From a virus, in the UHGV virus genome UHGV-0135878: DNA of 39,269 bases; one strand, 5' to 3'. The position numbers and the translations under genes were made by a program. Positions 660-4,949 of the stretch are shown piece by piece. The notes under the pieces were generated by a model that saw nothing but the letters and a program-made list of their open reading frames with translations, did not search any database and was not told where the DNA came from. Each line of letters starts with the position of its first letter. The first letter of the stretch is position 1.

Positions 660-682
660 CGCTGCCGCCACTTTGTCGCCAT
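660..682. repeat. Candidate attL core (cgctgccgccaCtttgtcgccat)
   Basis: 22/23 identical to 36415-36437; abuts the stop codon of the 682-1437 gene; exact crossover not determinable from sequence alone. Confidence 0.45.
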
Positions 683-1437
683 TAAGAAGGTGATGACTGG
701 TCTTTGATAGCTAGAAGTCCCCATGAGAAAACTTCTTTGGCATCGCTTATTAAACCATCCTCTATAAATTGCTGTGTCTCAGCCCATTCCATATCACTGA
801 CATAGTGTACTAGCGTATTTGTCTGGATTGGGATTTCTTCAAATTGCTCGATTCGACGTTTGAAACTACATTCAGGATCTGAACAACGGCATGTGCGTCT
901 TATATCATCTACCCTACAGAGTAAAAGGGAGTAGGGGGTCTCAAGTGGTGCACAGTAGTCAACCCGATAGTTATGAGATCGTGTTGGCTGGATGTTATGA
1001 AGGGGATCTAAAAGCACAATATTAAAAATTTGGTTCTCATCCCAAAAGCCAACAACTCTACCAAGGGCAGTAGATATCTGAAATTGTAGTAAGGGGTATT
1101 CTTCGTCATTTTCAAGGTAATCAGTGTCAATCCATGTCAACTGGCTACGTTGTACGGGTATATTTCTTTGTTCCCAGTTTATTGAATGATAGCGCCATGC
1201 CTCTCTATCGGCCCCACTGGTAATAAAGCCTTTGACATCTTTTTGAGAAAGCTCAGATAATTTTCCAATTAGTGAAACAAACCAGCCTGAATTGGTACGG
1301 TCTAACCCAAAATTATCAATTTGACGCCAATAACGAAAAGAAAATGCCCACTTTTTTTCGGGTGCAGAGGGCGTTTTTGGGGTCTGTGCCGCTGTTGGTT
1401 GATTTGCCCCTAATGAAGGGCGGTAGGCGTTCACCAT
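682..1437 (-). CDS. Hypothetical 251-aa protein, downstream partner of the Panacea-domain gene (candidate toxin/effector)
   Basis: ATG at 1437 lies 5 nt after the stop of the upstream gene (operon arrangement); AT-rich; no motif recognised; Cys cluster CRCSDPEC; stop codon overlaps attL repeat. Confidence 0.6.
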   Translation of the reverse strand: MVNAYRPSLGANQPTAAQTPKTPSAPEKKWAFSFRYWRQIDNFGLDRTNSGWFVSLIGKLSELSQKDVKGFITSGADREAWRYHSINWEQRNIPVQRSQLTWIDTDYLENDEEYPLLQFQISTALGRVVGFWDENQIFNIVLLDPLHNIQPTRSHNYRVDYCAPLETPYSLLLCRVDDIRRTCRCSDPECSFKRRIEQFEEIPIQTNTLVHYVSDMEWAETQQFIEDGLISDAKEVFSWGLLAIKDQSSPS

Positions 1438-1442
1438 GGCTA

Positions 1443-1910
1443 TTAATTTAATCGGCTACGATAAAAGTCTCTTGTTATGTTGCGATCGATGACTACTTCA
1501 CAACGTGCTGAAGGTCTGTAACCCTCACGAGCCTTAATCCATGGTTCTTCTTTATGAGTCATATCTTCAAGTTGTGCGCCAGAAAAAGCACCGTAGACTT
1601 CAAGAACGCCATCAATATGAGCTGCGGTTGCGGCTGGAATGGATGAAAGATCAAACCCAGGAGTGCGATCTGCAATCGTTATGTCCGAATACAGTGATTT
1701 TGTAGAAGAGAACCGGTTATAAATCGCACGGCTTACTGGGCCATGAATCCAAGCTTGAAACTCCTCATCCACTAACTTTTTATCGAAAAAAGCTAGATAC
1801 CAAGCATCTGCGTAATAAGCTAATTTTTGCAGCTTCAAATTAGACATAGTTTCACCTGAAGCTAAGATTTTTGTGATGATGTAATCACATAATTGGTTAA
1901 TATTTATCAT
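1443..1910 (-). CDS. Panacea (DUF4065) domain protein, SocA/GepA-like putative antitoxin
   Basis: 155 aa; strong RBS GAGGGA before ATG at 1910; KLQKLAYYADAWYL and C-terminal THKEEPW motifs match DUF4065 as remembered. Confidence 0.6.
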   Translation of the reverse strand: MININQLCDYIITKILASGETMSNLKLQKLAYYADAWYLAFFDKKLVDEEFQAWIHGPVSRAIYNRFSSTKSLYSDITIADRTPGFDLSSIPAATAAHIDGVLEVYGAFSGAQLEDMTHKEEPWIKAREGYRPSARCEVVIDRNITRDFYRSRLN

Positions 1911-2075: not shown

Positions 2076-3095
2076 TTACGTAGTTACCATAGTTGCTAAT
2101 GGATTAAAACGTAGCGCTGTTTCTAGGTGGTCAGGAGCCAGATGAGCATAGCGCATGGTCATTTTTATGTCGTGATGCCCAAGGATTTTCTGCAGAGCCA
2201 GGATGTTTCCGCCGGACATCATAAAGTGTGCTGCGAACGTATGACGCAGAACGTGTGTTAGCTGACCGCGTGGAAGCACAATAGAAGTCTTATCCATTAC
2301 AGATAAAAACTGGAAGTAGCAGTCAGTGAAGAAATTGAAACCGTCTAGGGCAATGATTTCCTCATACAGCTCTTTGCTAATCGGAATGCTTCGGTTCTTT
2401 TTGCCTTTGGTCCTGACGAATGTGATCCGGTATTTCGTAACCTGAGAACGGGTTAGGTTCACAGCTTCGCGCCAGCGTGCTCCGGTGCTCAGACAGATTT
2501 TAACGACAAGAGCGAGCAGGGGACTTTGGCGGTTGCAGTCGTACAATAGCTCGGTAATTTGTTCATGCGTCAGCCAGGCCATCTCCTTTTCTGCGATGGT
2601 GAATTTTCGCATGTTCTCCAGTGGGTTCGGATACGACCATTCGCCCAGGCGGGATAGTTCGCTAAAAACACTACTTAGATAGCTTTGCTCCAGGTTAATG
2701 GTGACCGGGCTTGCTCCTTTCTTCCATTTCTCGCTGAAGTAGATCTCGCCTGTCAGGCGTTTATCTCGATAGTGGGCAAACATTTTAGAGGTGAGATCAG
2801 TTGCAAGGGGATTGCCCAGAGCGTCAACCATCAGCAGCAATTTGTCATAGACATGCTGCCCAGCAGTCAGTGATTTACCATGTAGTTTGAACCATAGCTC
2901 AACCACGTCTTTTAGTGTTCGACGATCCACTGATTCACCTAGCCAGGGCTTTGCTTCGGTTTCTTCCATCGTGTGACGCTCAAAAGCCAGTGCTTCGCCT
3001 TTGGTGGCGAATTGTTTACGCACACGACGCCCACTACGTCCGGCGGGGTAACATTCGCAAAGCCATTTTCCTGTGGTGAGTTTTCGTACAGCCAT
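2076..3095 (-). CDS. int: Tyrosine integrase (P2 Int family)
   Basis: ATG at 3095 chosen over track start 3251 (P2-like N-terminus MAVRKLTTGKW); C-terminal LRHTFA...MRYAHL catalytic R-H-R-Y signature. Confidence 0.9.
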   Translation of the reverse strand: MAVRKLTTGKWLCECYPAGRSGRRVRKQFATKGEALAFERHTMEETEAKPWLGESVDRRTLKDVVELWFKLHGKSLTAGQHVYDKLLLMVDALGNPLATDLTSKMFAHYRDKRLTGEIYFSEKWKKGASPVTINLEQSYLSSVFSELSRLGEWSYPNPLENMRKFTIAEKEMAWLTHEQITELLYDCNRQSPLLALVVKICLSTGARWREAVNLTRSQVTKYRITFVRTKGKKNRSIPISKELYEEIIALDGFNFFTDCYFQFLSVMDKTSIVLPRGQLTHVLRHTFAAHFMMSGGNILALQKILGHHDIKMTMRYAHLAPDHLETALRFNPLATMVTT

Positions 3096-3283
3096 AAAAA
3101 ATGCCCTCCAATAGAGAGCATTTTTACTGTATGTATAACCAGTGTCAATATATGAAATCCTGCGACCATACATCTCACTGAAGCCATAATGAAGTAGGCT
3201 ATTCTTTTTGCTATGTGAGCATGTAACTTTTGCGGTTAACCTGTGGCTCATTTTTATTTTAGGCGCAGATATAAAAGCAAAAG

Positions 3284-3475
3284 TTATCGTGAGTTTTTAG
3301 TACAGATTTTTTTGGATTTACTAATAGTTCCATCATTGCAAACGAATTTGCCATCTGAGGTACAGTGAGAAACACCTCCCTTTTTCCCTGAGCAGGGATA
3401 ATTTCTAGCATAGGTAGCTAGTGGGTTTAATAACAAAGAACATGACAAAACCACAAAAAATACCTTACCAAGCAT
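3284..3475 (-). CDS. Small secreted Cys-rich protein (63 aa, signal peptide, 4 Cys in mature part)
   Basis: ATG at 3475 preceded by strong RBS GGGAGGA; starts 15 nt after the cI stop on the same strand; N-terminal hydrophobic signal-like segment. Confidence 0.5.
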
Positions 3476-3490
3476 AATTTCCTCCCGGTA

Positions 3491-4060
3491 CTATTTAACA
3501 TACTTGACTGTTAAACTTATAATTTTACCAATTATTTCAATGTCTTCTATCTTGCATTCGAAGGCTCTGTTTCCACCCTCGACGAAGATTCTTCCACCGG
3601 GTAAACGAGTAATGTCACGGATCGTTATTTCGCCATCAATACTTATTACCCATTTACCATCACGTATATCATCAAATTCCTTATCACAAATAAATTCAGA
3701 ATTATTATCTGTGATTACAAAAAGATTCTTGAATGCCGACGGTAGAAATTCTCTATCGAAAATATAAAAACCGTCTTCACACAAGGCCCCATCAGATAAT
3801 ACATATTTAGCAACTTCCATAGTATTTGTATTACCTGAAGTTTGCTTTGAACCATGCCCGGTTGTGAGCCAATTAAGCGAGGTGCCTGTTTCAAGGGCGC
3901 ACTGGATTACCCATTCTGCTGGGAATGAGTCACGCATGTAGCGTGTGGCGAGTGTACTTTTAGAGATTCCTAAATGATCGCACAACGCCTGTCGAGTCTT
4001 GAATCCATATGCTTCTACCATGCGCTCTATAGCGCCTCGTCCGCCTTTCTCCAAATTCAT
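3491..4060 (-). CDS. cI: Immunity repressor, 186 CI-like HTH protein
   Basis: 189 aa from ATG at 4060 (RBS GGAG); HTH-containing N-terminus; position and orientation between int and the divergent early operon; size matches 186 CI rather than P2 C. Confidence 0.7.
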   Translation of the reverse strand: MNLEKGGRGAIERMVEAYGFKTRQALCDHLGISKSTLATRYMRDSFPAEWVIQCALETGTSLNWLTTGHGSKQTSGNTNTMEVAKYVLSDGALCEDGFYIFDREFLPSAFKNLFVITDNNSEFICDKEFDDIRDGKWVISIDGEITIRDITRLPGGRIFVEGGNRAFECKIEDIEIIGKIISLTVKYVK

Positions 4061-4084
4061 GGTCACTCCAAGTGAACTTTTATC

Positions 4085-4113
4085 TTGACGATTTCACTGT
4101 GCGATCGTATGTT
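4085..4113 (+). promoter_or_regulatory. Candidate early lytic promoter (TTGACG -17- TATGTT)
   Basis: -35 at 4085-4090 and -10 at 4108-4113 with 17-nt spacer, about 70 nt upstream of the first early gene. Confidence 0.3.
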
Positions 4114-4185
4114 TATGGTGTTCACAAAATACAAACGATCCGTATTCGTCCTGATTAATCATCATTAAACGAGGAATGTTGCATC

Positions 4186-4407
4186 ATGAGACCTAACATT
4201 TCAATCACTCTTACTACACCTCATGTGACTATTGAACGCTATAGCGAGCTGACAGGGCTATCCATCGATACCATCAATGACATGTTGGCTGATGGACGCC
4301 TTATCCGTCACCGTCTGCGCAAAGATAAAAAACGCGAAAAAGTGATGATCAACATAGCAGCAATGACCGTTGATGCGCTTTCAGAATGCAATCTAAACCT
4401 TAATTAG
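4186..4407 (+). CDS. Apl/Cox-like excisionase-regulator (small HTH protein)
   Basis: 73-aa first gene of the early operon; RBS GAGGAA; position equivalent to 186 apl / P2 cox. Confidence 0.55.
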
Positions 4408-4439
4408 TTCGATTCTGAAATACATCAGAGGCATTGACC

Positions 4440-4949
4440 ATGTTTGATTACCAAGTTTCCAAACATCCACATTTTGATGAATCCTGTCGTGCATTCGCAT
4501 TGCGCCACAACCTGGTGCAACTGGCAGAACGTGCTGGCATGAATGTGCAGATTCTGCGGAACAAGTTGAACCCAGCTCAACCTCATTTATTAACCGCACC
4601 AGAAATCTGGCTGCTTACCGATCTGACTGAAGATTCAACGCTGGTAGATGGTTTTCTGGCTCAGATTCACTGCCTGCCATGCGTACCGATTAATGAGGTG
4701 GCAAAAGAGAAACTGCCACATTACGTCATGAGTGCAACCGCAGAGATCGGGCGTGTTGCTGCAGGTGCGGTATCTGGCGATGTAAAAACCAGTGCAGGTC
4801 GTCGTGATGCTATCAGCAGCATTAACTCTGTAACACGACTGATGGCGTTGGCTGCTGTTTCATTGCAGGCCCGTTTACAGGCTAACCCTGCGATGGCGAG
4901 TGCAGTTGATACCGTGACTGGCCTCGGTGCTTCATTTGGTTTGCTGTGA
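4440..4949 (+). CDS. cII: CII-like lysogeny establishment regulator (186 CII family)
   Basis: 169 aa from ATG at 4440 (track start 4434 is TTG); N-terminus [10 protein letters not shown] matches remembered 186 CII. Confidence 0.75.

What the first reader, a model, noticed from the sequence alone, without database searches (positions are those of the whole stretch)
3284..3475. Small secreted Cys-rich peptide gene coupled to the repressor gene
A 63-aa ORF with a very strong RBS (GGGAGGA) starts 15 nt after the cI stop on the same strand. It is therefore probably co-transcribed with the repressor and made in the lysogen. It has a signal-peptide-like N-terminus and four cysteines in a ~40-aa mature part. 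This is the pattern expected for a lysogenic-conversion or superinfection-exclusion factor acting in the envelope.
Basis: partly seen in the sequence, partly recalled or inferred. Interest (0 to 1): 0.5.

Follow-up and report, generated by a model that had tools for sequence, protein, structure and literature searches.

The report
Prophage YdcA-family periplasmic mini-protein gene
The small ORF is a real, well-conserved gene for a secreted, disulfide-rich 40-residue protein of the already catalogued but functionally unknown YdcA family, carried as accessory cargo just behind the repressor gene of a 186/P2-like E. coli prophage, so it is probably made in lysogens, but what it does there is untested.

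Summary
A 63-codon ORF lies at 3284-3475 on the minus strand. Its ATG is 15 nt after the stop of a 186-type cI, behind a GGGAGGA ribosome-binding site. It is a true gene: 11 synonymous against 2 non-synonymous changes versus the BL21 allele. It passes the curated cutoff of NCBIfam NF007463, and RefSeq names it 'YdcA family protein'. The family shows a variable Sec signal ending A-x-A, then a near-invariant basic mature peptide with four invariant cysteines. About 12% of complete E. coli genomes carry this copy, almost always with this cI allele. In phage 186, cI abuts int within the pL/pE lysogenic operon, so this gene sits in a cargo slot of that operon. In sister prophages the slot holds PD-Lambda-1/SNIPE or KAP-NTPase defence genes, and in one strain only a 9-codon remnant remains. 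YdcA-like genes also follow repressors in Haemophilus phage HP2 (unannotated, ATG overlapping the cI stop), in Yersinia prophages, and behind LexA/lambda-type repressors in six other species. The only solved relative is Legionella Dot/Icm subunit Dis2, and that link is a remote one. Expression in the lysogen and export to the envelope are well supported. Superinfection exclusion is only one untested possibility. It is a new member of a known family of unknown function.

The parts
3284..3475 (-). YdcA-family gene: 63-aa precursor. Predicted Sec signal peptide is residues 1-23 (cleavage TYA|RN). The mature peptide is 40 aa, basic, with 4 invariant Cys.
3476..3490 (-). 15-nt cI-to-ORF spacer carrying the RBS GGGAGGA. 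The same spacing occurs in the BL21 and PSJ-29 alleles, and the RBS has decayed in the ZH48 remnant.
3491..4066 (-). 186-type CI repressor gene (Phage_CI_repr + Phage_CI_C), the upstream gene of the lysogenic operon.
3155..3283 (-). Non-coding tail of the cargo insert. It has a long stem-loop directly after the ORF stop with no U-tract, so it is not a canonical terminator. Homology to other int-linked prophages stops near 3155.
3092..3125 (-). int leader hairpin: 13-bp stem, dG -20.2 kcal/mol, z -6.3. It buries the int Shine-Dalgarno GGAGGG and ends in a U-run before the int ATG (3094). It may act as an attenuator separating cI-ydcA expression from int.
2076..3095 (-). Phage integrase (true start MAVRKL at 3095), the downstream gene of the lysogenic operon.

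Best explanation
The ORF is a functional accessory (moron) gene of a 186/P2-like prophage integrated next to rcdA. It encodes a YdcA-family pre-protein. Shown: membership of the family, purifying selection, tight 15-nt coupling to cI with a strong RBS, and position inside the region that in phage 186 is the pL/pE lysogenic operon (cI-int). Also shown: variable cargo content of this slot, and repeated placement of YdcA-like genes behind phage repressors in unrelated hosts. Inferred: it is co-transcribed and translated with cI in the lysogen. The precursor would be exported by Sec and cut by signal peptidase I after Ala23. The 40-residue lysine-rich product would be oxidised to two disulfides and stay in the periplasm near the outer membrane, where it binds a conserved envelope component. 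This is by analogy with its only solved relative, Dis2, which docks onto the lipoproteins DotC/DotD/DotK under the outer membrane. The net effect would be a constitutive extra dose of a YdcA-like envelope factor, that is, lysogenic conversion of the envelope. I favour a general host-benefit or envelope-robustness role, like that suggested for chromosomal ydcA, slightly over phage exclusion. Neither has been tested.
For: Identity: NF007463 scores 114.6 bits against a cutoff of 93, and phrog_6000 matches. RefSeq names it 'YdcA family protein', and precomputed Pfam assigns PF27300. Export: the N-terminus is variable and hydrophobic, ends in a >=90% conserved Ala at -1, and is followed by the near-invariant mature [14 protein letters not shown]..[15 protein letters not shown]. 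Selection: 11 synonymous vs 2 non-synonymous differences, and both non-synonymous changes lie at the signal-peptide end. Operon: the 186 record annotates pL/pE -> cI-int-orf69 -> terminator, with cI and int abutting; here there is a 15-nt gap and no predicted terminator. Linkage: this cI allele occurs in 657 genomes and the ORF in 628. In HP2 the ATG overlaps the cI stop. Yersinia prophages show cI(38% id)-YdcA-int. Six further species have the gene on the same strand downstream of HTH_3 +/- Peptidase_S24 repressors. Cargo slot: PD-Lambda-1, PDC-S20/KAP NTPase and other genes occupy it in sister prophages. The int-primase region is a published minor P2 defence hotspot (PMC13586616). Dis2 link; Dis2 biology: PMC8486379 and PMC12716638. 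Chromosomal ydcA: its deletion sensitises E. coli W to 3-hydroxypropionate, and it is reported as acid-induced (PMC7642389).
Against: No transcript, peptide or phenotype data were found for this gene. No SignalP-type predictor was available, so export rests on sequence features and family conservation. The Dis2 relationship is weak once the signal peptide is removed (E 0.042; hhalign probability 54%). The gene is dispensable, having been replaced in ZH48. There is no PADLOC hit. In Moraxella and Acinetobacter phages the homologue sits among late/structural genes rather than behind the repressor, so repressor coupling is not universal.
Confidence: 0.7

Rival explanations
1. Superinfection-exclusion or anti-phage factor. 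The periplasmic mini-protein would block adsorption, DNA injection or the lysozyme activity of incoming phages, protecting the lysogen.
For: It is expressed from the repressor operon, as rexAB and sieB-type genes are (established knowledge). The same cI-int slot carries the validated defence gene PD-Lambda-1/SNIPE and the candidate PDC-S20 in sister prophages. The gene recurs behind repressors, next to other envelope-targeted cargo genes, in six beta/gamma-proteobacterial species. The int-primase region is a published P2 defence hotspot.
Against: The mature sequence is 60-90% identical across proteobacterial classes, and most copies are chromosomal, for example between cybB and hokB in E. coli. 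Exclusion proteins are usually lineage-specific and fast-evolving. There is no PADLOC hit. In PSJ-29 a separate defence gene was added downstream while the YdcA-like gene was kept, and in ZH48 it was simply replaced.
Confidence: 0.25
2. Outer-membrane lipoprotein, acylated at Cys12 (VLSC), rather than a soluble periplasmic peptide.
For: A Cys at position 12 follows a hydrophobic run, and several enterobacterial prophage alleles keep a Cys at that column (LSC, LFC, LIC, LVC). One homologue is labelled 'Lipoprotein' in UniRef.
Against: The motif does not fit the lipobox [LVI][ASTVI][GAS]C in most alleles. Only about 6 hydrophobic residues precede Cys12, and the Cys is absent from most of the family. 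In contrast, the A-x-A site 11 residues later is >=90% conserved, and conservation of the mature domain begins right after it.
Confidence: 0.05
3. Neutral hitch-hiker: a decaying remnant of a chromosomal ydcA copy picked up by the phage, with no current function.
For: It is dispensable: it is replaced in ZH48, and absent from 186 itself and from many prophages with the same int.
Against: It is under strong purifying selection (pN/pS about 0.05) and intact in 628 genomes, with a preserved strong RBS. It has been placed independently behind repressors in distant phages.
Confidence: 0.05

Closest known systems
E. coli K-12 YdcA (b1419) and the YdcA family (NCBIfam PRK10040 models NF007462/NF007463, Pfam PF27300, phrog_6000)
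   Same: Same architecture: a signal peptide ending in A-x-A followed by the mature PCSG.KGG(V/I)SHC...GKFVCNDG(T/S)IS.SKK.C with four Cys. The window protein passes the curated cutoff of NF007463. The chromosomal YdcA sequence was recovered from L142.
   Different: The window copy is prophage-borne, sits in the cI operon rather than between cybB and hokB, and is only about 70% identical in the mature part. It scores below cutoff for the chromosomal-YdcA model NF007462 (68.5 vs 118). The function of the family is itself unknown; the only data are a 3-HP-sensitive deletion mutant and reported acid induction (PMC7642389).
Legionella pneumophila Dis2 (Lpg0823), outer-membrane-cap subunit of the Dot/Icm type IVB secretion system (PDB 7MUC/7MUD chain AN)
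   Same: It is the only solved structure that matches by sequence profile and is also the Foldseek top hit. It shares the motif C-S-K-x-GG-x-x-C ... VCN(D/N)G-x-x-S and is disulfide-pinned, secreted and outer-membrane-proximal. A Dis2-like protein carries the same Pfam PF27300 annotation. Two-domain YdcA-family proteins bridge the two groups (E 7e-5).
   Different: Dis2 has two diverged lobes, five disulfides and 124 aa, and is a stoichiometric T4SS subunit. The window protein is a single 40-aa domain with no T4SS nearby. Statistical support is modest once the signal peptide is removed (E 0.042; hhalign probability 54%).
Repressor-operon accessory genes of temperate phages (lambda rexAB; 186 lysogenic-operon orf69; cargo of the P2-like int-primase hotspot)
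   Same: The gene is located downstream of, and on the same strand as, the immunity repressor, and is therefore expected to be expressed in the lysogen. The slot is variable between otherwise syntenic prophages (PMC13586616).
   Different: Those genes encode cytoplasmic or membrane defence or unknown proteins that are unrelated in sequence. This one is a tiny Sec-exported peptide that also has chromosomal paralogues.

Membership tests
YdcA family (NCBIfam NF007463 / PRK10040; Pfam PF27300) | Scores above the curated model cutoff | tested here: met
   NF007463 scores 114.6 bits against a cutoff of 93, covering residues 5-63. Precomputed PF27300 is assigned to the identical protein P0001. PF27300 is not in the local Pfam copy, so it was not re-scored here.
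YdcA family (NCBIfam NF007463 / PRK10040; Pfam PF27300) | N-terminal signal peptide followed by a ~35-aa domain with four conserved Cys and the PCSGKKGG / FVCNDG motifs | tested here: met
   In alignment A1 of 42 members, P27, K32, C38, F44, C46, G49, S52, S54, K55 and C58 are invariant, and C28 and A23 are >=90% conserved.
YdcA family (NCBIfam NF007463 / PRK10040; Pfam PF27300) | Orthology to chromosomal E. coli ydcA (model NF007462; cybB-ydcA-hokB locus) | tested here: not met
   NF007462 scores 68.5 bits against a cutoff of 118. The gene is in a prophage, not next to cybB. It is therefore a paralogue, not the ydcA orthologue.
Sec/SPase I-exported periplasmic protein | Positively charged n-region, hydrophobic h-region, small residues at -3/-1, and experimental processing | tested here: inconclusive
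   The sequence features are present (K4; [12 protein letters not shown]; T-Y-A|R) and the cleavage column is conserved family-wide. No signal-peptide predictor or experiment was available.
Dis2 (Lpg0823)-type T4SS outer-membrane-cap subunit | Significant sequence or fold similarity to the Dis2 lobes | tested here: inconclusive
   The full-length profile gives E 2.8e-5 but the mature-only profile gives 0.042. Foldseek ranks Dis2 first with probability 0.96 and E 0.08. hhalign gives E 1.2e-4 at probability 54%. BLASTP of a two-domain family member against Dis2-like gives 7e-5.
Dis2 (Lpg0823)-type T4SS outer-membrane-cap subunit | Two-lobe architecture and association with a Dot/Icm T4SS | tested here: not met
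   The protein has a single domain of 40 aa. Its neighbours are cI and int of a P2-like prophage, with no T4SS genes.
Known anti-phage defence or superinfection-exclusion systems (PADLOC-DB) | Match to a defence-protein model | tested here: not met
   There were 0 PADLOC families for the window protein and for the PSJ-29 allele. The phenotype was not tested.
Bacterial lipoprotein | Lipobox [LVI][ASTVI][GAS]C after an adequate h-region | tested here: not met
   The V-L-S-C12 motif has Leu at -2 and only about 6 hydrophobic residues before Cys. That Cys is not conserved in the family.

The most novel reading that the evidence does not exclude
YdcA/Dis2-fold mini-proteins are a general class of outer-membrane-proximal periplasmic adaptors. 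Temperate phages of many proteobacteria would repeatedly wire them to their repressor genes. In the lysogen the phage copy would dock onto a conserved OM lipoprotein or OmpA-like complex and remodel the envelope, giving exclusion of competing phages or conjugative/T4SS traffic, or stress protection. That would make this a widespread, previously unrecognised repressor-coupled lysogenic-conversion module, and would give the orphan E. coli gene ydcA and Legionella Dis2 a common function.
Probability: 0.2. Interest if true: 0.65.

Novelty: new member of a known kind. Interest (0 to 1): 0.4.

Why it matters
About one in eight complete E. coli genomes, including the workhorse strain BL21(DE3), carries this gene behind a prophage repressor, and nobody knows what YdcA-family proteins do. 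Three things here were not found in the literature I could search. The gene is repeatedly coupled to repressors in Escherichia, Yersinia, Haemophilus HP2/S2 and several beta/gamma-proteobacteria. It sits in a slot otherwise used for anti-phage defence genes. It also appears related to the 'Legionella-specific' T4SS subunit Dis2. Together these give a cheap experimental handle on an orphan family: delete or express a 192-bp gene in BL21. If nothing comes of that, it remains an ordinary small prophage moron of a catalogued family.

Tried and rejected
1. The local Pfam scan of the ORF gave only a sub-threshold, meaningless hit (GULLO2-like_3rd). I recalled a resemblance to DUF3761, but no Pfam hit supported it, so I dropped it.

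2. PADLOC returned no hit.

3. Rfam on 2900-4300 returned only a sub-threshold Phe_leader match (E 0.36). The structured spacer is not a known RNA family.

4. The phage database at DNA level holds no cultured phage with this cI/ydcA block. Protein hits occur only in Moraxella, Acinetobacter, Haemophilus and Pseudomonas phages.

5. The UniRef label 'Conjugal transfer protein' and plasmid hits were followed up. The plasmid copies are mostly on small mobilizable Acinetobacter plasmids and rhizobial megaplasmids, not in conjugation operons, so I found no support for a conjugation role. The 'ydcA' of the gonococcal genetic island and of B. subtilis are name coincidences, judged from my own knowledge plus the titles, and were not pursued.

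6. Weak PDB hits to Pin-II protease inhibitors and LDL-receptor modules (E 0.07-3) were rejected as Cys-pattern noise.

7. Literature searches for YdcA with periplasm/disulfide, and for protein accessions, found nothing useful.

8. The viral-contig scan returned only near-identical E. coli copies, so it added nothing on diversity.

9. The consensus terminator scan did not flag the int-leader hairpin. It was found by folding instead.

Full report
**1. The observation**

The window region 2076-4949 is the lysogeny/immunity module of a 186/P2-like prophage (Peduoviridae type) inserted beside the E. coli gene rcdA. On the minus strand the order is int (2076-3095), a 63-codon ORF (3284-3475) and cI (3491-4066). 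On the plus strand it continues with a Cox/Apl-like gene, cII, fil and so on.

The minus-strand sequence between cI and the ORF reads TAA-ATAGTACCGGGAGGAAATT-ATG. The only corrections are that the feature is on the minus strand, and that the precursor has five cysteines, one of them inside the signal peptide.

**2. It is a real gene of a catalogued family**

- The protein passes the curated cutoff of NCBIfam equivalog NF007463 (PRK10040.1-2): 114.6 bits against a cutoff of 93.
- It matches phrog_6000 (function unknown), and the identical protein carries the precomputed Pfam family PF27300.
- RefSeq already names it 'YdcA family protein', WP_001513672.1.
- A profile search of 1.84 billion representative proteins found 431 clusters of relatives, some with two or three tandem copies of the domain.
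- A scan of one genome per species found 225 loci spread over alpha-, beta- and gamma-proteobacteria.
- In the alignment of 42 members, the N-terminal ~23 residues are variable but hydrophobic and end in a >=90% conserved Ala. The remaining residues ([14 protein letters not shown]..[18 protein letters not shown]) are almost invariant, including four Cys. This is the signature of a Sec signal peptide cut by signal peptidase I (here TYA|RN) in front of a constrained, disulfide-bonded, lysine-rich mini-domain.
- The window and BL21(DE3) alleles differ by 11 synonymous and 2 non-synonymous changes (pS 0.257, pN 0.014). Both amino-acid changes lie at the end of the signal peptide.
- A lipoprotein reading (Cys12) is unlikely. 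The motif does not fit a lipobox, the preceding hydrophobic run is too short, and that Cys is not conserved.

**3. Where it sits**

The annotated phage 186 record shows the lysogenic operon pL/pE -> cI -> int -> orf69 -> terminator, with the cI stop overlapping the int start. Relative to 186, this prophage has about 395 nt inserted between cI and int. The insert consists of the YdcA-like gene plus a structured non-coding tail (whole spacer z -3.9).

No terminator is predicted between cI and the ORF. The stem-loop just after the ORF stop lacks a U-tract. A strong hairpin at 3092-3125 (dG -20.2 kcal/mol, z -6.3) buries the int Shine-Dalgarno and ends in a U-run. Homology among int-linked prophages starts at about 3155, so this hairpin belongs to the int module. 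Co-transcription with cI in the lysogen is therefore a well-founded inference, not a demonstration.

**4. Population picture in E. coli**

- The ORF is present in 648 of 5,426 complete genomes, 628 of them at near full length. This cI allele is present at >=80% coverage in 657 genomes, so the two are almost always together.
- The same int 5' end occurs in 1,109 genomes, of which only 593 carry the whole block.
- Prophages with the same int but other immunity regions carry different genes in the cI-int slot. These include a 323-aa membrane-like protein (L005), PD-Lambda-1/SNIPE (L006, L007; PADLOC E 1e-120), and the YdcA-like gene plus a KAP-NTPase (PDC-S20) (L008).
- Strain ZH48 has the same cI clade followed by a 9-codon remnant of the YdcA-like start (MLGKAFVVV*) with a decayed RBS, then a second CI-like gene and a KAP NTPase.
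- The gene is therefore ancestral to this cI clade but replaceable, which is the behaviour of accessory cargo.
- A 2026 survey lists int-primase and int-att as minor defence hotspots of P2-like phages (PMC13586616).

**5. The same arrangement elsewhere**

- In Haemophilus phage HP2 (and S2), a 60-aa YdcA-family ORF that the records do not annotate starts with an ATG overlapping the cI stop. It is followed by a secreted orf1(S) protein and then int.
- In Yersinia alsatica, Y. aldovae and Y. nurmii the order is cI (38% identical) - YdcA-like - int.
- In six further species (Iodobacter, two Comamonas, Oceanisphaera, a Hydrogenophilales MAG and a Moraxellaceae MAG) the gene lies on the same strand, 0.2-0.9 kb downstream of an HTH_3 regulator. 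Three of these regulators carry a Peptidase_S24 domain (LexA/lambda-CI type). The neighbouring genes have signal peptides or transmembrane segments.
- In total, at least 12 of 80 species-level loci have a repressor upstream.
- Other contexts exist. The homologue lies among late/structural genes in Moraxella Mcat and Acinetobacter phages, on small mobilizable Acinetobacter plasmids, and at the chromosomal cybB-ydcA-hokB locus of Escherichia.

**6. Structure and the only solved relative**

The AlphaFold2 model is moderately confident: mean pLDDT 75, rising to 89-91 over residues 31-50. It shows a short helix and a beta-hairpin.

Both the sequence-profile search of the PDB and Foldseek put a single protein on top: chain AN of 7MUC/7MUD. 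[quoted passage not shown] Dis2 has two similar lobes pinned by five disulfides and lies under the outer membrane. It contacts DotC, DotD and DotK, and it is dispensable for assembly and intracellular growth (PMC8486379, PMC12716638).

The support for this link is modest:

| Test | Result |
|---|---|
| Profile search, full-length alignment | E 2.8e-5 |
| Profile search, mature part only | E 0.042 |
| Foldseek | probability 0.96, E 0.08 |
| hhalign | E 1.2e-4, probability 54% |
| BLASTP, two-domain YdcA-family protein vs Dis2-like | E 7e-5 |
| Precomputed Pfam on a Dis2-like protein | carries PF27300 |

I regard remote homology as probable (about 0.75). The papers describe Dis2 as Legionella-specific with no structural neighbours.

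**7. Function**

Nothing direct is known. For chromosomal ydcA, one study reports that deletion makes E. coli W sensitive to 300 mM 3-hydroxypropionate, and it cites acid induction under YdcI (PMC7642389).

The most defensible mechanism is as follows. The gene is expressed with cI in the lysogen. The product is exported by Sec and processed by SPase I. It forms two disulfides, and the basic 40-residue peptide acts in the periplasm close to the outer membrane by binding a conserved partner.

Whether the pay-off is envelope robustness for the host or exclusion of other phages cannot be decided from sequence alone.

- For exclusion: the company it keeps, namely a defence slot and a repressor operon.
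- Against exclusion: extreme conservation across proteobacterial classes, mostly chromosomal copies, and no PADLOC match.

**8. Verdict**

The interpretation (lysogen-expressed, envelope-directed accessory gene) is largely supported. The specific superinfection-exclusion claim is untested.

The gene is a new, prophage-borne member of a known but functionally orphan family. The repressor coupling across genera, the unannotated HP2/S2 gene and the Dis2 link are the parts worth a follow-up.

Noticed in passing
window 682-1437 (-) and 1443-1910 (-): A 251-aa protein with no family hit and a SocA/Panacea-domain protein (PF13274, E 2e-19) lie between rcdA and int, in the int-att cargo slot. At the same place 186 has orf69, BL21 has a 110-aa ORF and other strains have nothing. 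The pair is probably a PanA-type antitoxin with a novel toxin, or a defence pair. Neither has a PADLOC hit.
   Followed up: partly
window 3092-3125 (-): A strong hairpin (dG -20.2 kcal/mol, z -6.3) lies immediately upstream of the int ATG. It sequesters the int Shine-Dalgarno GGAGGG and ends in a U-run. It is conserved with the int module across many E. coli prophages and may attenuate int transcription or translation relative to cI. The consensus terminator scan did not call it.
   Followed up: partly
L001 (Haemophilus phage HP2, NC_003315) 2944-3126 in locus coordinates; same in phage S2 (Z71579): An unannotated 60-aa YdcA-family ORF ([60 protein letters not shown]) has an ATG that overlaps the cI stop codon. 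It is followed by the secreted orf1(S) protein (tRNA_anti-like OB-fold Pfam hit) and then int.
   Followed up: yes
PDB 7MUC/7MUD chain AN; proteins P0228, P0229, P0065, P0067: Legionella Dot/Icm subunit Dis2 (Lpg0823), described in the literature as Legionella-specific and without structural neighbours, looks like a diverged two-domain YdcA-family (PF27300) protein. Two-domain family members from other bacteria bridge the similarity.
   Followed up: partly
L171 (E. coli ZH48) 2992-3041; L006/L007 3380-5056; L008 1642-2973: The cI-int slot of rcdA-integrated P2-like prophages is a swap site. It holds PD-Lambda-1/SNIPE, KAP-family NTPases (PDC-S20), a second CI-like gene, or a 323-aa membrane-like protein. 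ZH48 retains a 9-codon fossil of the YdcA-like gene.
   Followed up: yes
window 3495-3523 (+): A near-consensus sigma-70 promoter-like site (TTAACA-17-TATAAT, 11 of 12) lies on the plus strand, pointing antisense into the 3' end of cI. It may be chance in AT-rich DNA, or an antisense promoter.
   Followed up: no
L170 (E. coli BL21(DE3)) 3983-4174 and 8170 onward: BL21(DE3) and E. coli B carry the same cI-YdcA-like-int module (96% identical) in a defective P2-like prophage that also carries a 'retron St85 family effector' gene, so the gene can be studied directly in a standard laboratory strain.
   Followed up: partly
L169 (Acinetobacter pittii plasmid pApiMCR53a, 3.9 kb) 728-904: YdcA-family genes are one of only about five genes on tiny MOBQ mobilizable Acinetobacter plasmids. 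This suggests the gene alone confers a selectable benefit.
   Followed up: no
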